A DNA stretch of 64,000 bases from an uncultured Lichenicoccus sp. (GTDB lineage: Bacteria > Pseudomonadota > Alphaproteobacteria > Acetobacterales > Acetobacteraceae). Shown here piece after piece: positions 11,203-53,292 of the stretch (its first letter is position 1; each line of letters starts with the position of its first letter). The translations under genes and the position numbers were made by a program. Where the stretch lies: NCBI GenBank assembly GCA_963693035.2, contig CAXMMQ010000001.1, positions 2,457 to 66,456 on the forward strand, in the 5' to 3' direction. Below the pieces are notes generated by a model. The model was not told where the DNA came from. It saw only the letters and a list, made by a program, of their open reading frames with translations, and did no database searches.

Positions 11203-13287
<2,085 letters not shown>

Positions 13288-13409
13288 GCCGGACGCCTTA
13301 CCCGACCGGCGACGGCGCGCCAAATCCTCGAGCGGACGACCTGTCGACGGCAGGCCAAGCTTCACCGGAACTTCACATAGCGGGATGGCTCCAGAAACTA
13401 AGACAGGGC

Positions 13410-13425
13410 GTCAGGAATTGGTCAG
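13410..13425 (-). promoter_or_regulatory. OmpR-family-type direct repeat CTGAC-N6-CTGAC, copy 1
   Basis: Minus strand CTGAC caattc CTGAC, followed 9 nt later by TAGTTT (-10-like) facing the S9 peptidase. Confidence 0.6.
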
Positions 13426-13432
13426 GTTTCGC

Positions 13433-15682
13433 ATGCCTAAGCTCAGGCGTCTGGGGTCCGTCACGACGGCGGCGTTCGTTGTCGCAGCCTGTGCGCTGCC
13501 CGCCTCGCGCCGATCGTTCGCCCAGGCAAGCGCCGAACAAGCCGCGAGCGCGGACACCTCGCCCCCTGCCGAGAGCGTGCAGGTCAACGGGCACGTCTTC
13601 CCGGGCGCCGCTTCGGCGCAGGCGCCGTCGCAGGGGTCGCTCACCCAGATCCAGCCGAGCGCGGTGATCGGCCAGCGCTACATCCAGGAGAACGTGCCGG
13701 CGACCTCCAACTACGACGACATCATCCGGCTGACGCCGAGTGCGATGGATATCGATCCCAACGGTCCCGGACTGCAGCAGGATTTCGGCCAGAGCATACG
13801 CGGCCTGCAATACACCCAGTTCAGCGTGCTGTTCGACGGCGTGCAGGTTCCAGGCTCGCCGAGCAACCTTTCGCCACAGCCGGCCGCCTATTTCGTGGCG
13901 CACGACCTTTCCGGCATCGTCGTCAACCGCGGCCCGGGGCCGGCCTCGACCGTCGGGTCGGCGACGTTCGGCGGGGATGTCGAACTTTCCTCGCGCGATC
14001 CGTCGACCACGATGCGCTTCAACCCGTATGCAACCTTCGGCAGCTTCGGGACCAAGCTCTACGGCTTGCAGGCGGATACCGGGGCACTCGGCGGCGTGTT
14101 CGGCGACGGCAGGCTGATGATCGACATCCAGCGCAACGAAAGCCGCGGCGCCTCGACCGGCACCAGTGACGAGCGGCGCAACCTGTTCCTCAAATATATC
14201 CAGCCGATCGGCGCCGACACCACGCTGACGGCGGCGGTCAACCTAGACAACGCCGTGACCGACACGCCATACGGCACCTCGCTCGCACTGATCGACACGT
14301 ATGGGCGGAATTTCTCGCTCAACGACGATCCGCGCTCGCAGGCCTACGGCCCGTACAACCGCGACAACTACACGACGGATTTCGAATACATCAAGCTCGA
14401 CCACGATTTCGGCAGCGGGCTGGGCGTGTCGGACCAGGCCTATACCACCGCCTTCTATCACCGCGGCACGCAGACGTCGGACACCTCGCTTACCACGCCC
14501 AACCTCACCACGACGGCGACACGCACGTACTTCCTGAACGGCGTGCGCACCGTGCTGGACAACGACGTGCCCGGCGCCGCCTACAAGAACGACTACCGGG
14601 CGTGGGGCGACATCCTGCGCTTGGCCTACGACACCGGCTTCGGCCAGTTGCGCACCGGCGCCTGGTTCGAGAGCGAGGACAACCCGCTCTACAAGACCAA
14701 TGTCGTGCTGACGCGCAACGACCTGCCGTACACGACGTCGCGGACCGCATCACCATACCAGTACCGCTATTTCGATCGGCTGACGACGGCACAGCCCTAT
14801 ATCGAGTTCGCCTGGCGACCGACTGCGCGCCTGACGGTAACTGTCGGCGTCAAGTACAGCTCGGTGACGCGGGCGCTGAACGGCCCGCTGGTGCGCACGG
14901 TGAAGCGCGCGGCGGATGACCATGCGACCTACAACAAGGCGCTGCCGTCGATCGACCTGAACTACCGTGTCGCGACCGGGCTGTCGGTGTATGCGCAGGC
15001 CGCCAAGGGCTATCTGACGCCGCCACTCAACGTGTTCTACGCCTCGATCGTGAGCAGCGTGCAGCCCTCGACCACCGACAACTACCAGGTTGGCAGCGTC
15101 TATCAGCACCGCTGGCTGTCGGCCGACGCCGACCTGTATTACATCCGCTACCAGAACTACATCGCGGCCACCACGCTCGGCACCAACACGCTTTATACCA
15201 ACCAGGGTTCGGCGCACTTCAAGGGTGTCGAGGTCGAGGCGACGGCACAGGTCGGCTACGGCTTTGCGCTGTATGCCAACGGCTCGCTCAACGATGCCAA
15301 CTACCTCAACGGCGCCTCGGTCGCCCAGGCGCCGCGCCGCACCGGCGTTGCCGGATTGCTGTTCGACCGCACCAACCTTGCGCTCGAAGGGGATCGTGTT
15401 GGGTTCTCGCTGCTTGACAAGGATGTCGGTCCGCAATGGGGCGTGGATACCGGGTTCAAGAACAAGTATCCGATCAAGTCGTACGACACGCTCGATCTTT
15501 CGGTGCACTACGTGCTGCCGGTCCTGCGCGGACGCCATGTCGAACTCGGCATGCAGGCGACCAATCTGCTGAACAATCTGAGCCTGATCGGCTACGCGGG
15601 TGCTGCGGCGGGCAACGGCGAGCCGCTGTACTGGGTCAATCCGGGGCGCGGCCTGTTCTTCAATATTGCCGCGGTCATCTGA
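13433..15682 (+). CDS. TonB-dependent receptor (TBDR1)
   Basis: Signal peptide; TonB-box-like ESVQVNG; plug motifs SIRG and VNRGPG..ATFGG; amphipathic beta strands; about 750 aa. Confidence 0.92.
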   Translation: MPKLRRLGSVTTAAFVVAACALPASRRSFAQASAEQAASADTSPPAESVQVNGHVFPGAASAQAPSQGSLTQIQPSAVIGQRYIQENVPATSNYDDIIRLTPSAMDIDPNGPGLQQDFGQSIRGLQYTQFSVLFDGVQVPGSPSNLSPQPAAYFVAHDLSGIVVNRGPGPASTVGSATFGGDVELSSRDPSTTMRFNPYATFGSFGTKLYGLQADTGALGGVFGDGRLMIDIQRNESRGASTGTSDERRNLFLKYIQPIGADTTLTAAVNLDNAVTDTPYGTSLALIDTYGRNFSLNDDPRSQAYGPYNRDNYTTDFEYIKLDHDFGSGLGVSDQAYTTAFYHRGTQTSDTSLTTPNLTTTATRTYFLNGVRTVLDNDVPGAAYKNDYRAWGDILRLAYDTGFGQLRTGAWFESEDNPLYKTNVVLTRNDLPYTTSRTASPYQYRYFDRLTTAQPYIEFAWRPTARLTVTVGVKYSSVTRALNGPLVRTVKRAADDHATYNKALPSIDLNYRVATGLSVYAQAAKGYLTPPLNVFYASIVSSVQPSTTDNYQVGSVYQHRWLSADADLYYIRYQNYIAATTLGTNTLYTNQGSAHFKGVEVEATAQVGYGFALYANGSLNDANYLNGASVAQAPRRTGVAGLLFDRTNLALEGDRVGFSLLDKDVGPQWGVDTGFKNKYPIKSYDTLDLSVHYVLPVLRGRHVELGMQATNLLNNLSLIGYAGAAAGNGEPLYWVNPGRGLFFNIAAVI

Positions 15683-17300
15683 CCGGGGCGAGCGACGCGA
15701 GCGACCCGAGCCAGGCCTCGTAGCGGCGCCATGCACCTGCGGCCTCCGTGGAAATCGGCCTTCGGACCTGCCATTTGCTCGGCGTGTGCACCGCGCGCGG
15801 GTTCAGTTCGGGCCGCAGGCAGGCATCCGACCAGGAGAGGCCGCAGGCCGACAGCAGGCGCCGGATCACCGCCTCCGGAGTGGCGACCAGCTCCTCGTAG
15901 ACCACTTCGTGCAGGCGCTCCGACGGCAGCACGCGCCGCCAGTGCGCCGCCAGCCGCTCGACTGCGCCGATCGCGGCCACCAAAGCGTCGCCGCCGGTCG
16001 GAAAGGCGACGTGCTGGTTGAAATAGGTGCGGTGGATCGACAGGGCGGTATCGATCGGGCTGCGGCTGCACAGGATGATGGTGGCATCCGGCAGCGCTGC
16101 GTGGATCAGGCCGGCCTGCAGGATGTTGAACGGGCTCTTGTCGGTGACACGCGCCGCCCTGGGCGCAAGCTGGTGCAGCAGCCGCAGGTACTGTAAGGCC
16201 GAGGCCGCCGGATCCTGCGTTTCGGCGTGCCCGGTCCAGAACGGCAGCTCGCCGCCGGCATGCACCTGGGGGTGCGCCGACAGGATATGCTCGACCAGGG
16301 TGGTGCCGGTACGTGGCAGTCCGATGACCAGGACCGGCGTCGCATCGCGCTGTCCGCGCGGGGCAGGCGCGGTGACGCTCTCGGAGGTATGGAGCGCGAT
16401 CAGGCGGTCGATGCGGGCTTCGAAGGCCGCGGCATCGAAGCGGCAGAGGGTGCGGCGCCACTCATCCGCCAGGTCGTAGTGCCGCATCGCGCGGGCAGGG
16501 TCGTCGAGGTCGTCGAAGGCCTTGCCGAGGGCGAGGTGGAGTTTCAGCAGGAGTTCGGTCGGCAGGTTGGGAGTGGCGAGTGCGGCCTGCATGCGCGCGA
16601 TCAGCTCGCCATCGTCAGGTGTGAGGCGGCGGCAGCGCACCAGTTCGTAGTAGCTGCCGGCCAGTTGCGGCGCATCGCGGGTGGCCCGGTCGAGCAGGTC
16701 GAAGGCCTCCTGGAAGCGGCCGGCGCTGGACGCGATCATACCGAGCAGCTCGGTGGCGGAAAGCGCCGCCGGGTCCAGCGTCAGCAGCTGGCGCAGCGCC
16801 CGCTCCGCCTCGGCATCGCGGCCCCCGGCCAGCAAGGCGCGGGCATTGGCCAGCCGGGTCAGGCTGGTCCTCGGCGTGCCGGCGGCCGCACGCCGGAAGG
16901 CGGCGATGGCCTCGGGGGCACGGCCCAGCGTCTCAAGCAGGGCGCCTGCATGATAACGTGCCTCGACCAGCGACGGCTGCAGGCGGGATGCCTCCTGATA
17001 GGCGGCGAGGGCTCGGGCGTCGTCGCCCAGCCCCTGCAGCGCGATGCCGAGATGCAGATGGACAAGGGCAAAGCCTGGATCGCGGGCCAGCGCGGCCCTG
17101 AAGGCTTCCACTGCCTCGTCAGGGCGCCCGGCCTGCAGGCAGACCTGGCCAAGATCGTGCCGGAGGCCGGCATGCCCGGGTGCTGCGGCCGCCGCTGCAT
17201 AGAGCAGAGGCAGCGCGTCGGCCGGTCGGCCTTCCCGGACAAGTTGACCGGCGCGCAGCAGGCGAGGATCGGTGGTGGCAGGCTCAGGTCGGCGTGGCAT
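15675..17300 (-). CDS. TPR-repeat sulfotransferase (Sulfotransfer_3-like)
   Basis: N-terminal TPRs; PAPS 5'-PSB loop GLPRTGTTLVE; TDKSP; RSPIDTALS 3'-PB motif; QVRRPI. Confidence 0.9.
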   Translation of the reverse strand: MPRRPEPATTDPRLLRAGQLVREGRPADALPLLYAAAAAAPGHAGLRHDLGQVCLQAGRPDEAVEAFRAALARDPGFALVHLHLGIALQGLGDDARALAAYQEASRLQPSLVEARYHAGALLETLGRAPEAIAAFRRAAAGTPRTSLTRLANARALLAGGRDAEAERALRQLLTLDPAALSATELLGMIASSAGRFQEAFDLLDRATRDAPQLAGSYYELVRCRRLTPDDGELIARMQAALATPNLPTELLLKLHLALGKAFDDLDDPARAMRHYDLADEWRRTLCRFDAAAFEARIDRLIALHTSESVTAPAPRGQRDATPVLVIGLPRTGTTLVEHILSAHPQVHAGGELPFWTGHAETQDPAASALQYLRLLHQLAPRAARVTDKSPFNILQAGLIHAALPDATIILCSRSPIDTALSIHRTYFNQHVAFPTGGDALVAAIGAVERLAAHWRRVLPSERLHEVVYEELVATPEAVIRRLLSACGLSWSDACLRPELNPRAVHTPSKWQVRRPISTEAAGAWRRYEAWLGSLASLAPVR

Positions 17301-17417
17301 GGAGCGCAGGCGGCTTCATTGGTTGAAGCGGTTATCATAGGCCGACCCATCCGTTTCCCGACAGGCCGCGGGGAGACCGCAACCTGCCGGGCCGGACGCT
17401 GACGTTCGTGATCGGGT

Positions 17418-20198
17418 TCAGTCGTCTTTGTCGACGGTCGGGTGCCGCAGCGCGGCTTCGACCAGCTTGGCGGGCCACTGGATGTGCTGCTCGCCCGGAT
17501 ACGGACGCTTCCAGTCGGTGGCGGAATACCAGATCACGTGGTTGAGGAAATTCTCGTCCACTGAGTCCGCGTGACCCTGCTTGCCTCTGGTCATCCGGTT
17601 GGATGCGACATTCCATGCCTTCTGCATCGGTGTCATGCGAATGGCGTAGTTTGCCGGACCGGTGCCCGGGATCGGCACGCCGCCGGGGCCGATATTGAGC
17701 GGCGTGGTGGCCGGCACATGCGTGAACGGCGTGACATCGGCGGTGTTCTGGAAGCAGTCGAACATCGGCGACGCGGTCAGGTCGAACTGGGTCAGCGGCG
17801 GCAGGTCCAGGATGTTCTCGATGGTGCGGTTGATGTTCTCCTGCGTATAGGTGGTGTGAATGACGCGCCCGATGCCTGACGCTTGCGGCGCCACCGCATA
17901 GGGGCTGATGACGTAGGCCGGCTGGCGATGGCCGTCGATATGGTCGACGCCATCCTGGCTGTCGTCCTCCTCGACGAAGATCGCGGTCGTCGGCCATGCC
18001 CGGGTGTTGCTGATCGCCTCCACCATGCGGCCGAGGGCGAGGTCGTTGTCGGCCTCGTAGTTGTTGGGCAGCGGATCGCCGGTGGTGGTGCCGTTGGTGT
18101 GGTCGTCCGGCAGCCACAGGATGGTCAGGGTCGGCACCGCGTTCGCCGCATCCTGGGCGGCGAGGATCGGCAGGTAGTAGTCCATCCGGTACTGGTCCGG
18201 GATCCCGAGATTGAAGGAGGGATAGTGCGGATCAAGGATCTTCGTCACCGACGGGATGTAGGCCACCTCGGTATCGGCATTGTCCGGCACGATGTTGCTG
18301 CCGGCCTTGCCGCCGCTCTCCTTGAACAGCGAGGTGTTGTAGAAGTCGGCCCAGCTATAGTCGCCGCCGGCAGGCTTGGCCGCGATGGTGTAATGGTTGC
18401 TCCACTCGCCGTACATCTTGACGTCGAGGCCTTTCTGCTCGGCTGCCGACCACAGGAAGCCCTTCTGGGTGTAGGTCAGCGCATCGTTGCTGTTGCCGCC
18501 GGGATAGCTGCGGATCCAGTCCGGCGACAGGATGTCGTTGGAGTAGAACGAGCCGCTCTCGACGATCCAGGGATGCCCGTCCGCCGACTGCCGGCTCGGC
18601 GCATACATGTTGTCGAGCAGCGGGAACCGCTTCACCAGGGCGTGCTGGTTCGGAACGTTGGCGGCGAACACCGCGAGGCTCGGGTCGCCGTGCCCCTGCG
18701 GCAGGTCGCCGAGCATCTGGTCGTAGGTGCGGTTCTCCTTGATGACGAGGAAGACGTGCTTGATCAGCGACGGCTCGCCGACATGCGCCGGGATCGCGAC
18801 CGGATCGGCGTTCGGATTGGCATATTCCGAGCCGACCTGGATGTTCTTCGAATCCCAGTGGTTGTTGCGGATGACGCGCGCGGTCATCTTTGCGAGCTGC
18901 GTCGGGCCGGGCAGCGGGATCAGGCTGACGGTGCCGGTTTCCTGATGGGTGTTGAAGGCAGTCACGCCGTGCGCGGTGCCGAGCGATCCCTGCGCGCCGA
19001 GGCCCTTGTCGTCGGAGACGACGAGCTGTGCATTGGGTGCGTCGTAGGCGATGGTGGTCGGGAAGTACAGCGTCGGGATGTAGCCGATCACCGGGTTGGC
19101 GGAGTTGTTGGCGAGGTCGATCACCGCGACCGCGTTGGACTGGCCGAGGGTGACGTAGGCGTGGTCGCCGGCGATCGCGATGCCGTTGGCGCCGGCGCCG
19201 AACGTGCCGCCCTTTACCGGCACGCCGACCTTGATGGTGCGCACGACCTGCTGCAGGCCGGTATCGATCACCGAGACGGTGTCGTCGTAGGAATTGGCGA
19301 CATAGAGCTTGGAGCCCGAGACCGCCATGCCGGCGGGATGCAGGCCGACGGGGATGGTCTTGGTCACCGTGCCGCTGCGCATGTTGATCACCGAGACCGT
19401 CCCGGTGGTGGCGAACGCATCGGTCGGATCGGCCACGATCGGCGTGCCGTCGGAGAGGTTGGTGAAGTCCGACCCGGTCGCCGGCCGGCCGCCCTCGTTG
19501 CTGACATAGGCATAGTCGCCGCTGACCACGATGCTGTTGGGCGCGTTGCCGACCGCGATCTGGCTCTCCAGGGTGGAGTTCGAGAGGTTCAGCACGCCGA
19601 CGCTGTTGTTCGCGTTCAGCACGACGAGGCCCAGCGCGCCGCCTGCCGCCACGACGCCGCCGGGGTTCGCCGAGGTCGGGTTGTACAGGTTCGGGTTCGC
19701 CGGTGGCGGCGGCACCGGTATGCTCATCGCCGGCGTCAGCTCGCCGTTCGCCGGATTGACGTTCGCGACCGCGACGAAGTTGTTGTCCTGGCTGAACAGC
19801 AGCCTGGATCCGTCCGGCGAGTAGCTGATGCCGGTGAACGAGCCGGTGGTGTTGTTGGTGAAGCTGGTGCCGCTGACGGCGCTCGGGATGTAGCGCTGCA
19901 GCACCGCCCCGGTCTTGGTGTCGAACACGATGACCGGCTGGGCGGCATCCATCAGCAGCACCGCGCCGCTGCGCGTGGAGGGGTTCGGGTTGACGGCGAC
20001 CGCCTTGGCGACCACCGGCGAGCCGAGCTGCACGACCTTGCCGGCGGGCGTGAGCAGCTGGTTGTCCGAGGCGACGATGGAGCCGTTGGTCTGCGGTCCC
20101 ACCGTGCGGGTGGTCTGGTCGGTCTGCGCACACGCGATACCCGGGGCCGCGAGGGCGAGCGCCATCACGCCGGCGAGCGGATATTTCCTCAGTGACAT
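17418..20198 (-). CDS. Secreted YVTN/YncE beta-propeller + phosphoesterase (alkaline phosphatase superfamily) fusion
   Basis: Signal peptide; YVSN/YVAN/YVTL repeats; IKHVFLVIKENRTYDQMLGD; LPDDHT; EDDSQDGVDHIDGHR. Confidence 0.9.
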   Translation of the reverse strand: MSLRKYPLAGVMALALAAPGIACAQTDQTTRTVGPQTNGSIVASDNQLLTPAGKVVQLGSPVVAKAVAVNPNPSTRSGAVLLMDAAQPVIVFDTKTGAVLQRYIPSAVSGTSFTNNTTGSFTGISYSPDGSRLLFSQDNNFVAVANVNPANGELTPAMSIPVPPPPANPNLYNPTSANPGGVVAAGGALGLVVLNANNSVGVLNLSNSTLESQIAVGNAPNSIVVSGDYAYVSNEGGRPATGSDFTNLSDGTPIVADPTDAFATTGTVSVINMRSGTVTKTIPVGLHPAGMAVSGSKLYVANSYDDTVSVIDTGLQQVVRTIKVGVPVKGGTFGAGANGIAIAGDHAYVTLGQSNAVAVIDLANNSANPVIGYIPTLYFPTTIAYDAPNAQLVVSDDKGLGAQGSLGTAHGVTAFNTHQETGTVSLIPLPGPTQLAKMTARVIRNNHWDSKNIQVGSEYANPNADPVAIPAHVGEPSLIKHVFLVIKENRTYDQMLGDLPQGHGDPSLAVFAANVPNQHALVKRFPLLDNMYAPSRQSADGHPWIVESGSFYSNDILSPDWIRSYPGGNSNDALTYTQKGFLWSAAEQKGLDVKMYGEWSNHYTIAAKPAGGDYSWADFYNTSLFKESGGKAGSNIVPDNADTEVAYIPSVTKILDPHYPSFNLGIPDQYRMDYYLPILAAQDAANAVPTLTILWLPDDHTNGTTTGDPLPNNYEADNDLALGRMVEAISNTRAWPTTAIFVEEDDSQDGVDHIDGHRQPAYVISPYAVAPQASGIGRVIHTTYTQENINRTIENILDLPPLTQFDLTASPMFDCFQNTADVTPFTHVPATTPLNIGPGGVPIPGTGPANYAIRMTPMQKAWNVASNRMTRGKQGHADSVDENFLNHVIWYSATDWKRPYPGEQHIQWPAKLVEAALRHPTVDKDD

Positions 20199-20290
20199 CG
20201 TCGACTTAACTCCTGAACATGATCCCGGGCTGCCGCCGGCGAGAGCCGGAGGTGCGCGGGATCTGCTGCGCAAGGTTTTCGAACAGTAGG

Positions 20291-20306
20291 CTGACGGGAA
20301 CCTGAC
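20291..20306 (+). promoter_or_regulatory. Direct repeat CTGAC-N6-CTGAC, copy 2
   Basis: CTGAC gggaac CTGAC in the divergent gap between the phosphoesterase and the response regulator. Confidence 0.6.
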
Positions 20307-20419
20307 TGTCTGCCGCCCCGCGGCGTCCGGGCGCGCATTGTCACAAAAACATCGCCTTGCGCGGTGTCACGGAACGCCCCGATGATTGCGACGCGCTAGC
20401 TGTGCGTGGAGATCGACCG

Positions 20420-21130
20420 ATGCGTGTCCTGCTCGTCGAGGACCACCGCGCGCTGCGTACCATGATGATGGAGCATCTGCGCGCCGGCGGCTTCGTGACC
20501 GACGCGGTGGCGCGTGGCGACGAGGCGCTCGCGGCGGCATCGACCAGCCTGTACGACGCGGTCGTCCTCGATCTGGGTCTGCCCGACATGGACGGGCTCG
20601 AGGTGCTGCGCGCCCTGCGCTCCGGCGGCGCCCCCGACATGCCGGTCCTGGTGCTGACGGCGCGGGATGCCGTCTGCGACCGCGTCGAGGGGCTGGATGC
20701 CGGCGCCGACGACTACCTGCTCAAGCCGTTCGACCTGAACGAGTTCGATGCGAGGCTGCGCTCGGTGCTGCGCCGGCCCGGGCTGCGCCGCATGCCGGTG
20801 CTCGATCTCGGGGTCATGAGCTTCGACACCGAGGCCCGCGAGGCCAGAGTCCGCGGCGTCCTGCTCGACCTGTCGCGACGCGAGCTGTCGCTGCTGGAGG
20901 AGCTCGTGCGCGGGGTCGGCCGCACCGTGGTGCGCGACACGCTGGAGGACCGGCTCTACGGCCTCACCGACGCCTTCAGCGGCAACGCGCTGGAAGCCGC
21001 GGTCTCGCGCCTGCGCCGCCACATGGTCCGGGCCTGCGGCGACGAGATCGCGATCGAGACCATACGCGGCATCGGCTACCGGCTGGTGGTGCGCGCCGCC
21101 GGGCCGCGGGCACCTGATCCCGATGCGTGA
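20420..21130 (+). CDS. OmpR-family response regulator (PmrA/QseB/TctD-like)
   Basis: LLVEDH, VLDLGLPDMDG, LTARD, GADDYLLKPF and the winged-helix IETIRGIGY. Confidence 0.95.
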   Translation: MRVLLVEDHRALRTMMMEHLRAGGFVTDAVARGDEALAAASTSLYDAVVLDLGLPDMDGLEVLRALRSGGAPDMPVLVLTARDAVCDRVEGLDAGADDYLLKPFDLNEFDARLRSVLRRPGLRRMPVLDLGVMSFDTEAREARVRGVLLDLSRRELSLLEELVRGVGRTVVRDTLEDRLYGLTDAFSGNALEAAVSRLRRHMVRACGDEIAIETIRGIGYRLVVRAAGPRAPDPDA

Positions 21131-22154
21131 CCTGCTGCTCTCCAGCCTGCGCCGCCGCCTCATCGGCTCGATGTCGGTGCTGCTGCTCGGTGGCCTGGCG
21201 CTGGTCTCGGCGCTGCATGCGCTGGAGCATGGCCGCGACCTCACCGGCCGCATCGGCCGCCTGCTGCTCGGCGACGAGCTGCCGGAGCCCTGGCAGGACC
21301 TCGCCGTGCTGCTGCCGTTCGGCCTGGTGATGCTGGCGCTGATCGGGGTGGTGACGCGGTGGAGTCTGCGTCCGCTGGATGTCGCGTCGCGCGAGGCCGA
21401 GGCGGCCGGGCCGGGCGATCCGGCGGCCCGCATCTCCACCGGCGGCCTGCCTTGCGAGCTGCGGCCGCTGGGGCGTGCGATGAATGCGGCACTGGATCGC
21501 CTCACCGCCGCCTGGGAAGGCGAGCGCCGCTTCACCGCCGATGCCGCGCACGAGCTGCGCACGCCGCTCGCCGCCCTGAGCCTGCGCCTGCAGCGCAGCC
21601 GGCGGCTGGATGCGCCGACCGACTGGACGGCGATCGACGCGGACATCGCAGCGATGCGGCACCTGGTCGAGGGCCTGCTCGACCTCGCCCGCAAGGAAGG
21701 TGGCGGCGGCGATCGCGCGCCGGTCAATTTCTGCCGGATCGTGCGGGAGGCGGCCGCCGGCGTGCATCCGCTGATCGAGGAGGCCGGCCGTTCCCTGGTG
21801 GTCGAGCTTCCGGATGCGGTCGTGGTGCGGGGCGAGGCCGGTGACCTGCGCGACCTGGTGCGCAACCTGGTGCAGAACGCCCTCCTGCACGGCGCCGGCC
21901 GCATCGCCGTCAGGATGGCGGCGTCGGCCGACGGCGTCGTGCTCGAGGTGGCCGACGAAGGCTGTGGCATTCCGGTGGCCGACCGGGAAGCCATGTTCGA
22001 GCGCTTTCGCAAGGGTCGGACTGCGACCGCGGGGAGCGGCCTCGGACTGGCGATCGCGCGCGCGGTCGTGGTCGCGCATGGCGGCCGGATCGGCATTCCC
22101 GACGGCGCTGGCTCGCTGGTGCGCGTCGTGCTGCCTGCCGGTGGCGCCGCCTGA
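21123..22154 (+). CDS. Sensor histidine kinase (QseC/PmrB-like) with a very short periplasmic loop
   Basis: Two TM helices, HAMP, ADAAHELRTPL, NLVQNALLHG, DEGCGI and GSGLGLAI. Confidence 0.93.
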   Translation: MRDLLLSSLRRRLIGSMSVLLLGGLALVSALHALEHGRDLTGRIGRLLLGDELPEPWQDLAVLLPFGLVMLALIGVVTRWSLRPLDVASREAEAAGPGDPAARISTGGLPCELRPLGRAMNAALDRLTAAWEGERRFTADAAHELRTPLAALSLRLQRSRRLDAPTDWTAIDADIAAMRHLVEGLLDLARKEGGGGDRAPVNFCRIVREAAAGVHPLIEEAGRSLVVELPDAVVVRGEAGDLRDLVRNLVQNALLHGAGRIAVRMAASADGVVLEVADEGCGIPVADREAMFERFRKGRTATAGSGLGLAIARAVVVAHGGRIGIPDGAGSLVRVVLPAGGAA

Positions 22155-22229
22155 CCGGGGTCTGCCGTGCGCATTTCATGGAACTGTCTCAGGACATGAC
22201 CGCGTCGCCCCGCCATAACGCGATCCAAC

Positions 22230-22245
22230 CTGACGGCAGGCTGAC
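22230..22245 (+). promoter_or_regulatory. Direct repeat CTGAC-N6-CTGAC, copy 3
   Basis: CTGACGG cagg CTGACGG upstream of TBDR2. Confidence 0.65.
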
Positions 22246-22289: not shown

Positions 22290-24530
22290 ATGGCCGGAGC
22301 GACGATGGCGATACTTCGACGATGGATGCATGGCGGCAGGCGCGCCATCCTGCTGCGCGCGGGCGTGTGTTGCGTGACGCTGCCGGCGCTTCGGGCTCAA
22401 GCGCAGACCGCGCCGGCCGCAGAGCAGGTTTTGGTCACGGGCGCGCGCGCCGATGCGGTGCCGGTCACGGCCTCCGAGTTCGCGCCCAGCCAGCCCAGCA
22501 TCGACGAGACCGAGCCGACCAGCACGGTGAATGCGGAAACCCTGAAGAAGATCCTGGTGCCGACTGCCGACTACAACGAGGTGGTAGCGCTGACGCCGAG
22601 CGCGATGGATGTCAGCCCAGTAGGACCGGGACTGCAGCAGGATTTCGGGCAGAGCATACGCGGGCTGCAATATACAGAGTTCAGCGTCCTGTTCGACGGC
22701 GTTCCGGTGCCCGGGTTTCCGTTCAACCTCGCGCCGCAGCCAGGCGCCTATTTCTTCTCGCGCGATTTCGGCAGCGTCACGGTCAACCGCGGCCCGGGAC
22801 CGGCTTCCGCGATCGGGGCTGCGACCTTCGGCGGGTCGGTCGACCTGCGGTCGCCGAACGTCTCGGGCGCGCCACAGCTCGAGACCTACGGCACCTTCGG
22901 CAGCTTCGGCACCAAGCTGTTCGGCGCCGAGGAGTCGTCGGGCTCGCTCGCCGATCTCGGCGGTGCCAAGCTCCTGCTCGACCTCACGCGCGAGGAAAGC
23001 GGCGGCGCGCAGTCGGGCTCGTCGACCGAGCGGCGCAACCTGTTCCTGAAATACGAGCAGCCGATCGGGCGCAGCACGACGCTGACCGCCGTCGTCAACC
23101 TCGACAACGACAACACCAAGACCCCGTTCGGCGCCACGCTTGCCAACATGAATATCTACGGCCGCAACTACAGCCTGAACTCGGATCCGACCTCGCTGGA
23201 CTACAGCGGCTACAACCGCGACTACTACACGACGGATTTCGAGTATCTCGAGCTGAAGTCCGATCTCGGTGCAGGCTGGAGCATCGACAACCACGCCTAT
23301 ACGACGGCGTACTACCAGCGCCACTTCCTCACCAACGATCCGGGCGGCAGCTCGCCCAACTTCTCCGGCACGATCTATCTCGACGGCGTCGCCACCCCTG
23401 TCAGCAACGATGTGCAGGGCACGGCCACCCAGCTGGACTACCGCAACTGGGGCGACGTGTTCCGGCTGAGCAAGGCCACGACATACGGCGATCTCAATCT
23501 CGGCGTCTGGGCGGAGCGCGAGGGCTTCACCACCAACGAGGTGCCGGTCGACTTCACCCGGTCCCGGCAGGCGTACTCCCCCAATCCCGGCTATCCGCAA
23601 TATCTCGCGAAGTATTTCGCATCCCTGACTACGGCGCAGCCCTACGCCGAGTATGTCTGGCGTCCGGCGAGCAACGTGACCATCACCGGCGGGGTGAAAT
23701 ACAGCTCCGTCACGCGCTACCTCAACGGCCCCGTCACCCTGACCGGTGCACCGGCCAACGATCATGCGACCTTCAACAAGCCGTTGCCGTCATTCGATGC
23801 GAACTGGCGCGTGCAGCCGGACTGGTCGTTGTTCGCGCAGGCCGCGGAGGGTTTCCTGACGCCCCAGCTCAACCTGTTCTCGACCACGACGCCTGCCTCG
23901 GTGCAACCCTCCACCACCTGGAGCTACCAGGTCGGCACGGTGTTCCAGCGCCGCTGGCTCAAGCTCGGAGTCGATGCCTACGACGTCGAATTCCACAACT
24001 ATATTTCCAGCAACAGCGTCGCCGGCATCACCACCTACTTCAACCAGGGCGGCGCCACCTTCAAGGGTGTCGAGGTCGAGGCCACGGTGACGCTCGGCCA
24101 CGGCTTTGCCGCCTACGCCAACGGCTCCCTGAACGACAGCAACTACGGCAATAACGGCAACAACCTGGCACAGACGCCGAGGCGCACGGCGACGCTGGCG
24201 TTGCTGTATGACCGCGGCAATGTCCTGCGCGACAAGGACGAGGTATTCGGCAACGTCGTGCTGAAGTCAGTCGGCCCGCAATACGGGCTCGACACGGCGT
24301 TCGAAGGCCGGTTCGACCAGTTCCCGATCAAGTCGTACAACGAGGTCGATCTGAATGCCGGCTACCTGCTGCCGCTGTTCGGCAGCCGCATCCGCACCAA
24401 CGTCAACGTCACCAACCTGTTCGACCACCGCTCGCTGACCGGCTATGACGGGCAGACGCTGGAAGGCCAGGCGCTCTACTGGGTGCAGGCCGGCCGCGGC
24501 ATCTTCTTCTCGGTGGCGGCCTACCTGTAG
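22290..24530 (+). CDS. TonB-dependent receptor (TBDR2), paralog of TBDR1
   Basis: EQVLVTG TonB box. Shares long blocks with TBDR1 (GPGLQQDFGQSIRGLQY, ERRNLFLKY, NRDxYTTDFEY). Start may be 22290, 22308 or 22326. Confidence 0.92.
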   Translation: MAGATMAILRRWMHGGRRAILLRAGVCCVTLPALRAQAQTAPAAEQVLVTGARADAVPVTASEFAPSQPSIDETEPTSTVNAETLKKILVPTADYNEVVALTPSAMDVSPVGPGLQQDFGQSIRGLQYTEFSVLFDGVPVPGFPFNLAPQPGAYFFSRDFGSVTVNRGPGPASAIGAATFGGSVDLRSPNVSGAPQLETYGTFGSFGTKLFGAEESSGSLADLGGAKLLLDLTREESGGAQSGSSTERRNLFLKYEQPIGRSTTLTAVVNLDNDNTKTPFGATLANMNIYGRNYSLNSDPTSLDYSGYNRDYYTTDFEYLELKSDLGAGWSIDNHAYTTAYYQRHFLTNDPGGSSPNFSGTIYLDGVATPVSNDVQGTATQLDYRNWGDVFRLSKATTYGDLNLGVWAEREGFTTNEVPVDFTRSRQAYSPNPGYPQYLAKYFASLTTAQPYAEYVWRPASNVTITGGVKYSSVTRYLNGPVTLTGAPANDHATFNKPLPSFDANWRVQPDWSLFAQAAEGFLTPQLNLFSTTTPASVQPSTTWSYQVGTVFQRRWLKLGVDAYDVEFHNYISSNSVAGITTYFNQGGATFKGVEVEATVTLGHGFAAYANGSLNDSNYGNNGNNLAQTPRRTATLALLYDRGNVLRDKDEVFGNVVLKSVGPQYGLDTAFEGRFDQFPIKSYNEVDLNAGYLLPLFGSRIRTNVNVTNLFDHRSLTGYDGQTLEGQALYWVQAGRGIFFSVAAYL

Positions 24531-53217: not shown

Positions 53218-53292
53218 GGCGGCGTAGCTCAGCGGTAGAGCAGGGGAATCATAATCCCTTGGTCGGCGGTTCAAATCCGTCCGCCGCTACCA
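53218..53292 (+). tRNA. tRNA-Met(CAT), elongator type
   Basis: Cloverleaf: acceptor GGCGGCG/CGCCGCT + ACCA; D arm GCTC/GAGC; anticodon stem GGGGA/TCCCT with loop ATCATAA; T arm GGCGG-TTCAAAT-CCGTC. Confidence 0.95.

What the first reader, a model, noticed from the sequence alone, without database searches (positions are those of the whole stretch)
13410..22245. Three copies of CTGAC-N6-CTGAC mark a mini-regulon
Seen: exact 11-bp-period direct repeats at 13410-13425 (minus, facing the S9 peptidase and next to the TBDR1 start), 20291-20306 (before the response regulator, divergent to the phosphoesterase) and 22230-22245 (before TBDR2). All are intergenic. A hand estimate at 70% GC gives about 0.1 chance copies per 64 kb on both strands. 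I noticed no others but did not scan exhaustively. Known: OmpR-family regulators bind 11-bp-spaced direct repeats. The reverse strand, GTCAG-N6-GTCAG, resembles a PHO box (GTCAT-N6-GTCAY) with an altered last base. Inference: this is the site of the local regulator, including autoregulation.
Basis: partly seen in the sequence, partly recalled or inferred. Interest (0 to 1): 0.7.

Follow-up and report, generated by a model that had tools for sequence, protein, structure and literature searches.

The report
Conserved binding site of local regulator
Three exact copies of CTGAC-N6-CTGAC are real, far beyond chance, and conserved next to the same kind of two-component regulator in many Alphaproteobacteria, so they are most likely that regulator's DNA-binding site; this is a solid but fairly ordinary regulatory prediction.

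Summary
CTGAC-N6-CTGAC occurs exactly three times in the 64-kb window, all three copies are intergenic, and 0.18 copies are expected by chance.

Every locus fetched that encodes a relative of the local OmpR-family regulator with the recognition helix E-A-x-V-S-R carries the motif beside the regulator or its neighbour genes. There are 16 such loci (46-100% identity), from Acetobacteraceae, Sphingomonas, Azospirillum, Bradyrhizobium, Methylovirgula and metagenomes. Fifteen carry exact copies and one has a single mismatch. That is 28 exact sites in 292 kb against 0.6 expected. In orthologous positions the pentamers are kept while the spacers change.

The 152 paralogous regulator loci have none upstream. 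Their top repeated pentamer is instead the known PmrA/BqsR box, TTAAG-N6-TTAAG.

The motif tracks the regulator, not the cargo genes, which are phosphoesterase plus TonB-dependent receptors here and RND efflux or PepSY genes elsewhere.

PhoB is an unlikely binder. In two related loci the pstS promoter has a canonical TGTCAT-N5-CGTCAT box and no CTGAC motif.

Binding, the direction of control and transcription starts remain untested. The TBDR1 site sits a fixed 7 nt before the start codon, which suggests repression there.

Verdict: a new member of a known kind.

The parts
13410..13425 (-). Site 1: CTGACCAATTCCTGAC. On the + strand it reads GTCAG-N6-GTCAG and ends 7 nt before the TBDR1 ATG. In the CTGAC orientation it faces the S9 peptidase ATG, 122 nt away.
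   Evidence: The same position (7 nt before the ATG) is kept in the TBDR1 orthologs of L081, L084, L087 and L088.
20291..20306 (+). Site 2: CTGACGGGAACCTGAC, in the divergent region between the phosphoesterase-like gene (92 nt to its ATG) and the regulator (113 nt to its ATG).
   Evidence: Exact copies with different spacers occur in the same intergenic region of L081, L082, L083, L085, L087 and L173.
22230..22245 (+). Site 3: CTGACGGCAGGCTGAC, between the kinase stop and TBDR2, 44 nt before ATG 22290 or 59 nt before ATG 22305.
   Evidence: L081 has the orthologous site, 11801-11816; the pentamers are conserved and 5 of the 6 spacer positions differ.
20420..21130 (+). OmpR/PhoB-family response regulator (receiver plus winged-helix domain) with recognition helix GNALEAAVSRLRR. 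It is the proposed binder.
   Evidence: Pfam. It scores below every NCBIfam equivalog cut-off. Helix class against motif.
21123..22154 (+). Cognate histidine kinase (HisKA plus HATPase_c) with two transmembrane segments around an extracytoplasmic loop of about 25 residues.
17418..20198 (-). 926-aa secreted protein: an N-terminal YncE-like 7-bladed beta-propeller plus a C-terminal PF04185-type phosphoesterase. Likely target of site 2.
   Evidence: (NCBI name: bifunctional YncE family protein/alkaline phosphatase family protein). It lies divergent to the regulator in L081-L083, L085, L087, L088 and L173.
15675..17300 (-). TPR plus sulfotransferase protein downstream of the phosphoesterase gene on the same strand. 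Possibly co-transcribed with it.
   Evidence: The same order is found in L081 and L082.
13433..15682 (+). TonB-dependent receptor TBDR1.
22290..24530 (+). TonB-dependent receptor TBDR2, a paralog 50% identical to TBDR1.
11203..13287 (-). S9 (Dpp5-like) peptidase. A possible but uncertain regulon member.
   Evidence: In L082 it directly follows the phosphoesterase and sulfotransferase genes on one strand. In L081 it is absent from beside TBDR1.
20338..20361 (+). Conserved block TTGTCACAAAAACATCGCCTTGCG between site 2 and the regulator ATG. It may be a Pho-box-like half-site or part of the core promoter.
   Evidence: Alignment; compare the pstS box.

Best explanation
CTGAC-N6-CTGAC is the operator of the local OmpR/PhoB-family response regulator (20420-21130). 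More fully, it is two 11-bp units of the form A-n-S-CTGAC-R-n-n.

Inferred mechanism, by analogy with PmrA, BqsR and PhoB: the kinase (21123-22154) phosphorylates the regulator, and a head-to-tail dimer then places one winged-helix domain on each pentamer, one helical turn apart.

Proposed roles of the three sites (inferred from position):
- Site 2 serves the divergent pair, the YncE/phosphoesterase gene (with the sulfotransferase gene behind it) and the regulator-kinase operon. This gives autoregulation.
- Site 3 serves TBDR2.
- Site 1 lies over the ribosome-binding region of TBDR1. It more probably blocks TBDR1, or drives the oppositely oriented S9 peptidase, than activates TBDR1.

Shown here: the motif is non-random, intergenic, conserved in orthologous positions and specific to one recognition-helix class. 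Inferred: the binding itself, the direction of control, and the signal.
For: 1. Three exact sites against 0.18 expected, all intergenic.
2. Footprint. In the phosphoesterase/regulator intergenic region, six loci are 59% identical on average, yet the pentamers are kept while the spacers differ: GGGAAC, AAAAAC, AGAAAC, GGCAGG, GACAGC, CGCAGC. The same holds for site 3 and site 1.
3. In the 15 loci analysed that encode helix-class relatives, 292 kb in all, there are 28 exact sites against 0.60 expected. In 157 other loci, 1.83 Mb in all, there are 4 against 3.46 expected.
4. The motif follows the regulator while the cargo changes. The neighbours are phosphoesterase plus TBDR in the Acetobacteraceae-type loci and L173, an RND efflux operon in Sphingomonas L089 and L090, PepSY genes in L001 and L172, and cytochrome c or a hemolysin-like gene in L094.
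5. An unbiased count of every repeated pentamer, with spacers of 0-12, in the 600 bp upstream of the regulator genes ranks CTGAC-N6-CTGAC first in the E-A-x-V-S-R helix class: 10 of 16 loci against 0 of 152 others (Fisher p = 2e-12). The same count recovers the published TTAAG-N6-TTAAG box for the E-V-H-I-H class, which serves as an internal positive control (box from PMC4358008 and PMC10927774).
6. No sigma-70 consensus promoter is found at any of the three sites, which is compatible with activator-dependent promoters. This is weak evidence.
Against: There is no binding, expression or transcription-start data; no RNA runs hold this sequence. The invariance of the pentamers across the pooled site list is partly by construction, because sites were collected by exact match; only the orthologous-position comparisons are unbiased. 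L084 and L088 lack a site before the regulator gene, and L174 has only a one-mismatch copy. Both orientations occur relative to target genes. Site 1 lies 7 nt before a start codon, so a single activation geometry does not fit all sites. The pentamer differs from a PhoB half-site by one base, so cross-recognition by PhoB cannot be excluded.
Confidence: 0.8

Rival explanations
1. The sites are PHO boxes bound by PhoB. The cluster would then be part of the phosphate-starvation regulon, and the local regulator would be irrelevant to the motif.
For: GTCAG-N6-GTCAG differs from GTCAT-N6-GTCAY by one base per half-site. The main target is a phosphoesterase. In L083 and L085 the cluster lies next to pstSCAB-phoU-phoB. 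A conserved TTGTCAY block lies near site 2.
Against: The pstS promoters of L083 and L085 carry TGTCATcgaacCGTCAT and have no CTGAC-type site within one mismatch. No canonical box within one mismatch occurs in the window or in six other loci. The motif also flanks relatives of the regulator where the cargo has no link to phosphate, such as RND efflux, PepSY or ferritin genes. The local regulator scores 137 bits against the PhoB model, whose cut-off is 296.
Confidence: 0.07
2. The three copies are a chance coincidence in GC-rich DNA.
For: The motif specifies only 10 bases, and one-mismatch variants are not enriched.
Against: None of 100 shuffles reaches 3 copies. The sites are conserved at orthologous positions in about ten further loci. 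There are 28 sites against 0.6 expected in related loci and 4 against 3.5 in controls.
Confidence: 0.01
3. The motif is bound by another factor that is inherited along with the cluster, or it acts as a promoter or RNA element (an alternative-sigma -35 element, an mRNA leader or a ribosome-binding structure) rather than as the regulator's operator.
For: Site 1 abuts the TBDR1 ribosome-binding region at a fixed 7 nt in five loci. A GGAAC (GGAAA in L088) lies exactly 38 nt upstream of the site in four of those five loci. CTGACG resembles a TTGACG -35 hexamer.
Against: The only genes common to all motif-bearing loci are the regulator and its kinase. The orientation relative to downstream genes varies, which argues against an RNA-level element. 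There is no Rfam match. The 11-bp direct-repeat form is the hallmark of winged-helix regulator dimers.
Confidence: 0.1

Closest known systems
BqsR (CarR) box of Pseudomonas aeruginosa, TTAAG(N)6TTAAG (PMC4358008)
   Same: [quoted passage not shown] The regulator is of the OmpR class and its operon is autoregulated. PepSY genes lie beside relatives of the present regulator in L001 and L172; that the bqs operon also has PepSY genes is my own knowledge.
   Different: The pentamer is CTGAC, not TTAAG. The recognition helix is E-A-x-V-S-R rather than E-V-H-I-H. For BqsR, binding and overlap with the -35 element were shown by gel shift and cRACE; nothing has been tested here.
PmrA/BasR box: YTTAAK direct repeat, CTTAAT/CCTAAG half-sites, TTTAAG-N5-TTTAAG (PMC10927774)
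   Same: BasR/PmrA is among the closest solved structures, second after DrrD of Thermotoga maritima (8jo2, 4s04), and is the best NCBIfam model. The repeats have the same 11-bp period. CTGACR and CTTAAT share positions 1, 2 and 4.
   Different: The regulator scores 175 bits against the PmrA model, whose cut-off is 330. Six helix positions differ (T/A, V/A, H/A, I/V, H/S, N/R). The sequence specificity and the target genes are different.
PhoB PHO box, CTGTCAT-N4-CTGTCAY (own knowledge; the local version TGTCATcgaacCGTCAT was read)
   Same: Direct repeat with an 11-bp period and a shared GTCA core. The cargo is linked to phosphate metabolism.
   Different: The fifth base is G in every site collected and T at pstS. 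The motif is absent from the pstS promoters. The regulator is not PhoB (137 bits against a cut-off of 296).
Caulobacter UzcRS and UrpRS two-component systems (PMC8963506)
   Same: These are alphaproteobacterial OmpR-type systems. UzcR controls TonB-dependent receptors, peptidases and efflux pumps, and UrpRS controls a phosphate-releasing enzyme, a phytase.
   Different: The UzcR site is CATTAC-N6-TTAA, which is unrelated. The UrpR site could not be retrieved because the primary paper is not held, so identity with this family remains untested.

Membership tests
Operator of an OmpR/PhoB-family response regulator | An adjacent regulator with a receiver domain and a winged-helix Trans_reg_C domain, plus a cognate kinase | tested here: met
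   Pfam: PF00072 plus PF00486 in the regulator, and HisKA plus HATPase_c in the kinase.
Operator of an OmpR/PhoB-family response regulator | Direct (not inverted) repeats with a period of 10-11 bp | tested here: met
   CTGAC starts are 11 bp apart in all 28 collected sites. The flanks repeat as A-n-S-CTGAC-R.
Operator of an OmpR/PhoB-family response regulator | Sites lie in promoter regions of target genes, often including the regulator's own operon | tested here: inconclusive
   All sites are intergenic and upstream of genes, and 10 of 16 loci have one within 600 bp upstream of the regulator. No transcription start is known. Site 1 lies 7 nt from a start codon. L084 and L088 lack an autoregulatory site.
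Operator of an OmpR/PhoB-family response regulator | The motif varies together with the regulator's recognition helix | tested here: met
   E-A-x-V-S-R class: 10 of 16 loci have the CTGAC repeat upstream and none has TTAAG. E-V-H-I-H class: 0 of 51 have CTGAC and 7 have TTAAG or CTTAA.
Operator of an OmpR/PhoB-family response regulator | Sequence-specific binding by the phosphorylated regulator | not testable with these tools
   Needs EMSA, footprinting or ChIP.
PHO box / PhoB regulon | Consensus CTGTCAT-N4-CTGTCAY | tested here: not met
   No match to TGTCAY-N6-GTCAY within one mismatch in the window. The sites end in G where the consensus has T or C.
PHO box / PhoB regulon | The same motif lies in front of pstS | tested here: not met
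   The pstS promoters of L083 and L085 have TGTCATcgaacCGTCAT and no CTGAC-N6-CTGAC within one mismatch.
PHO box / PhoB regulon | The regulator is PhoB | tested here: not met
   TIGR02154 PhoB scores 137 bits against a cut-off of 296.
PmrA/BasR or QseB regulon | The regulator reaches the equivalog score and the box is YTTAAK-N5-YTTAAK | tested here: not met
   PmrA scores 175 against 330 and QseB 160 against 345. No TTAAG-type repeat lies upstream in any E-A-x-V-S-R locus.

The most novel reading that the evidence does not exclude
A change in the recognition helix (E-V-H-I-H to E-A-x-V-S) within PmrA/BqsR-like regulators has shifted the same 5-N6-5 operator from TTAAG to CTGAC across Alphaproteobacteria. 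This would define an uncharacterised, widespread regulator subfamily. In this locus the regulator would control two paralogous TonB-dependent receptors in opposite directions, blocking TBDR1 at its ribosome-binding region and activating TBDR2. It would also induce a secreted YncE/phosphoesterase fusion, possibly together with PhoB.
Probability: 0.25. Interest if true: 0.55.

Novelty: new member of a known kind. Interest (0 to 1): 0.45.

Why it matters
The result gives a concrete, testable operator sequence and a helix-to-DNA specificity pair for a regulator subfamily that no NCBIfam equivalog model names. It also gives a route to the regulons of these systems in lichen- and moss-associated Acetobacteraceae, Sphingomonas, Azospirillum, Bradyrhizobium and other groups. 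It ties a widespread but unstudied secreted YncE/phosphoesterase fusion and its TonB-dependent receptors to a dedicated sensor. The repeated-pentamer count also recovered the known PmrA/BqsR box as a by-product, so the approach could be reused for other orphan regulators. The mechanism itself, a winged-helix dimer on an 11-bp direct repeat, is textbook.

Tried and rejected
- The genome-collection scan with the regulator returned mostly paralogs, because the peptide patterns chosen were generic.
- The metagenome scan with an alignment had the same problem. Its loci were reused as a control set.
- Looking up the window's regulator by exact sequence found nothing.
- Sigma-70 promoter scans found nothing at any site.
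- No RNA sequencing runs hold the locus, so transcription starts could not be mapped.
- Literature searches for the motif strings returned nothing. The UrpRS primary paper is not held.
- The UzcR motif was checked and is unrelated.
- The AlphaFold model of the 926-aa protein had a mean pLDDT of 64. Its phosphoesterase half was poorly modelled, and Foldseek returned only beta-propellers (YncE 7seu), so it added little beyond the sequence evidence.
- An ExxE metal-sensing motif in the kinase loop was considered and dropped, because the first E is not conserved in the orthologs.
- A TGTCAC repeat 26 bp apart near site 2 is not conserved in L081 and was dropped.
- L091 (51% identity, helix E-V-H-V-S) has a single site in a convergent gene gap and was treated as a probable chance match.
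Full report
OBSERVATION. A search of both strands finds exactly three exact copies of CTGAC-N6-CTGAC in the window, at the stated coordinates: 13410-13425 (-), 20291-20306 (+) and 22230-22245 (+). Dinucleotide-preserving shuffles expect 0.18 copies, and none of 100 shuffles reaches three. One-mismatch copies are not enriched (8 against 4.6), and the extra ones lie in coding DNA or at gene ends. The window is 69% G+C.

Genes around the sites, from GC3-supported ORFs and Pfam:
- S9 peptidase, 11203-13287 (-)
- TBDR1, 13433-15682 (+)
- TPR-sulfotransferase, 15675-17300 (-)
- 926-aa phosphoesterase-like protein, 17418-20198 (-)
- OmpR-family regulator, 20420-21130 (+)
- histidine kinase, 21123-22154 (+)
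- TBDR2, 22290-24530 (+)

All three sites are intergenic. TBDR1 and TBDR2 are paralogs, 50% identical. The rest of the window is ordinary chromosome, with CobST, IspG, HisS, EF-G and others, and has no pst or phoB genes.

WHERE IT COMES FROM. The closest relatives of the regulator (85%) and of the 926-aa protein (90-92%) are from Lichenicoccus, in the Acetobacteraceae. The sequence is held by lichen and moss metagenome runs.

CONSERVATION AT ORTHOLOGOUS POSITIONS. I fetched the contexts of a graded series of regulator relatives and scanned them.
- L081 (85%) has all three sites at the same places: 7 nt before TBDR1, between the phosphoesterase gene and the regulator, and between the kinase and a TBDR2 that a Tn3-family transposon has truncated.
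- L082 (84%), L083 and L085 (77%), L087 (71%) and L173 (63%) have the site between the phosphoesterase gene and the regulator.
- L084 (73%), L087 and L088 (69%) have the site 7 nt before the TBDR1 ortholog.
- L087 and L173 have further sites before a second phosphoesterase paralog and before a TBDR.

The phosphoesterase/regulator intergenic regions are 59% identical on average. The pentamers are kept while the six spacer bases differ from locus to locus. The site 3 region shows the same pattern. This is a phylogenetic footprint, and it does not depend on how the sites were collected.

THE MOTIF FOLLOWS THE REGULATOR, NOT THE CARGO.
- Sphingomonas sp. 10B4 (L089, 63%) and L090 (65%) carry an inverted pair of the direct repeats, 57 bp apart, between an RND efflux operon and the regulator.
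- L001 (55%, 58% G+C) has two sites between a small PepSY-like gene and the regulator.
- Plasmid loci from Azospirillum, Bradyrhizobium and Methylovirgula (49-50%) all carry exact sites. In Methylovirgula a pair 51 bp apart lies between a ferritin gene and a PepSY-cytochrome b-regulator-kinase operon.
- L094 (46%) has two sites in 7.6 kb.

In the 15 such loci analysed, 292 kb in all, there are 28 exact sites against 0.60 expected. In 157 other loci encoding paralogous regulators, 1.83 Mb in all, there are 4 against 3.46 expected.

SPECIFICITY CLASS. Every motif-bearing regulator has the recognition helix N-x-x-E-A-x-V-S-R-L-R-(R/K). The paralogs have E-V-H-I-H-x-L-R or other helices. To avoid cherry-picking, I counted every repeated pentamer, with spacers of 0 to 12, in the 600 bp upstream of each regulator gene.
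- In the E-A-x-V-S-R class the top dyad is CTGAC-N6-CTGAC: 10 of 16 loci, against 0 of 152 others (Fisher p = 2e-12).
- In the control set the top dyad is TTAAG/CTTAA-N6. It occurs in 7 of 51 E-V-H-I-H loci and in none of the E-A-x-V-S-R loci.

TTAAG(N)6TTAAG is the experimentally proven BqsR box (PMC4358008) and matches the PmrA boxes (PMC10927774). The method therefore recovers a known answer as an internal control. The pooled sites extend the motif to an 11-bp unit, A-n-S-CTGAC-R. The invariance of the pentamers in that pool is by construction.

WHAT THE REGULATOR IS. It has receiver and Trans_reg_C domains and falls below every NCBIfam equivalog cut-off: PmrA 175 against 330, TctD 168 against 337, QseB 160 against 345 and PhoB 137 against 296. 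The closest solved structures are DrrD and BasR/PmrA. Against BasR, the recognition helix differs at six positions. The kinase has only about 25 extracytoplasmic residues, with a conserved (E/D)P(W/Y)QD at the edge of the second transmembrane segment. The signal is unknown.

THE PhoB RIVAL. GTCAG-N6-GTCAG does resemble a PHO box. In L083 and L085 the cluster lies next to pstSCAB-phoU-phoB. There the pstS promoter carries TGTCATcgaacCGTCAT, the only match to TGTCAY-N6-GTCAY within one mismatch in the eight sequences scanned, and it has no CTGAC-type site. PhoB's own box in this lineage therefore ends in T, and the two motifs are kept apart. Together with the motif's presence beside regulators whose cargo has nothing to do with phosphate, this makes PhoB an unlikely primary binder. 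Weak cross-binding cannot be excluded. A conserved block, TTGTCACAAAAACATCGCCTTGCG (20338-20361), lies between site 2 and the regulator. Its first half equals the pstS half-site, so PhoB may still contribute separately.

THE CARGO. The 926-aa protein has a signal peptide and a confident 7-bladed YncE-like propeller. Its C-terminal half carries the PF04185 signature and invariant ENRTYDQ, DDHTNG and EDDSQDGVDHVDGHR blocks. NCBI names its relatives bifunctional YncE family protein/alkaline phosphatase family protein. Its pairing with TBDR1-type receptors recurs in L084, L087 and L088 (a different TBDR in L173). A role in releasing and importing a phosphorylated substrate is a reasonable inference but was not tested.

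GEOMETRY AND WHAT REMAINS UNEXPLAINED. Both orientations occur relative to the downstream genes.
- In the CTGAC-to-gene orientation, the distance to the regulator start codon is 98-116 nt in the closest six loci (window, L081, L082, L083, L085, L087) and 54-78 nt in L173 and L001; the site is 122 nt from the S9 peptidase start and 44-59 nt from the TBDR2 start.
- In the GTCAG-to-gene orientation, sites lie 25-92 nt from the starts of the phosphoesterase, PepSY, ferritin and efflux genes.

Site 1 is the oddity. In all five TBDR1 orthologs (72-89% identical) it ends exactly 7 nt before the ATG and overlaps the AGG of the likely Shine-Dalgarno sequence. In three of those loci it lies in the short gap between the phosphoesterase stop codon and the TBDR1 start. 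That position cannot replace a -35 element for TBDR1. It fits a roadblock or repressor site. In the window it could also serve the divergent S9 peptidase. A GGAAC (GGAAA in L088) lies exactly 38 nt upstream of the site in four of the five loci and could be a -35 element, which would put the site just downstream of the transcription start. This is speculative. No sigma-70 consensus promoter and no Rfam family occurs at any site. No RNA data exist.

KNOWN OR NEW. Searches of the held literature for the motif strings found nothing. The Caulobacter UzcR site is different. The UrpR site could not be checked. In mechanism this is a standard OmpR-family operator, so I rate it a new member of a known kind. 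The sequence specificity, its link to a helix class and the predicted regulon appear to be undescribed.

VERDICT. PhoB is unlikely to be the binder. The direction of control, the signal and the role of site 1 are open. Interest is moderate, 0.45.

Noticed in passing
window 20338-20361: A conserved block, TTGTCACAAAAACATCGCCTTGCG, lies between site 2 and the regulator start. It is kept in L081, L082 and L087, and appears as GGTTGTCATCAAACCATCTCGCC in L083 and L085. Its first half equals the pstS Pho-box half-site TTGTCAT. It could be a PhoB half-site or part of the core promoter.
   Followed up: partly
window 13367-13371, with L081, L084 and L088: GGAAC (GGAAA in L088) lies exactly 38 nt upstream of the TBDR1-type site in four of five loci. 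In the window and L081, TCCAGAAACTAAGAC is a second conserved block. Together they may form a -35/-10 pair, which would put site 1 just downstream of the TBDR1 transcription start.
   Followed up: partly
window 21123-22154: The histidine kinase has an extracytoplasmic loop of only about 25 residues. A conserved (E/D)P(W/Y)QD motif sits at the edge of the second transmembrane segment in the phosphoesterase-type and Sphingomonas-type loci. Kinases in L001 and L170-L172 have large periplasmic domains.
   Followed up: partly
window 17418-20198 (-): A 926-aa secreted fusion of a YncE-like 7-bladed beta-propeller and a PF04185 phosphoesterase. Thousands of homologs were retrieved, and the 120 listed share 63-92% identity; they include Acetobacteraceae, Steroidobacteraceae and Bryobacteraceae. 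No solved relative exists for the catalytic half.
   Followed up: partly
L081 11894-15482: The TBDR2 ortholog is truncated after about 228 codons by a Tn3-family transposon with its resolvase. The upstream CTGAC site is still intact.
   Followed up: no
L089 9889-9961; L090 5552-5624; L172 4985-5051; L170 8878-8944: In the more distant relatives the direct repeat occurs as an inverted pair of sites, 51 or 57 bp apart start to start, in divergent promoter regions. This suggests that two dimers serve two promoters.
   Followed up: partly
L082 3111-9800: The phosphoesterase, TPR-sulfotransferase and S9 peptidase genes form one uninterrupted string on one strand. The S9 peptidase may therefore belong to the regulon through operon membership there. 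In the window, TBDR1 is inserted between the sulfotransferase and the S9 peptidase in the opposite orientation.
   Followed up: partly
window 22151-22166: A one-mismatch copy, CTGACCGGGGTCTGCC, overlaps the kinase stop codon and starts 79 bp upstream of site 3. It is not in helical phase with site 3 and is not conserved in L081.
   Followed up: partly
window 53218-53289: A tRNA gene, the only Rfam match in the window.
   Followed up: no
control loci L003, L010, L019, L046, L109, L110, L126: Regulators with an E-V-H-I-H-type helix carry TTAAG or CTTAA-N6 repeats upstream of their own genes. This extends the PmrA/BqsR-type box, and autoregulation, to Alteromonas and other gammaproteobacterial loci.
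   Followed up: no
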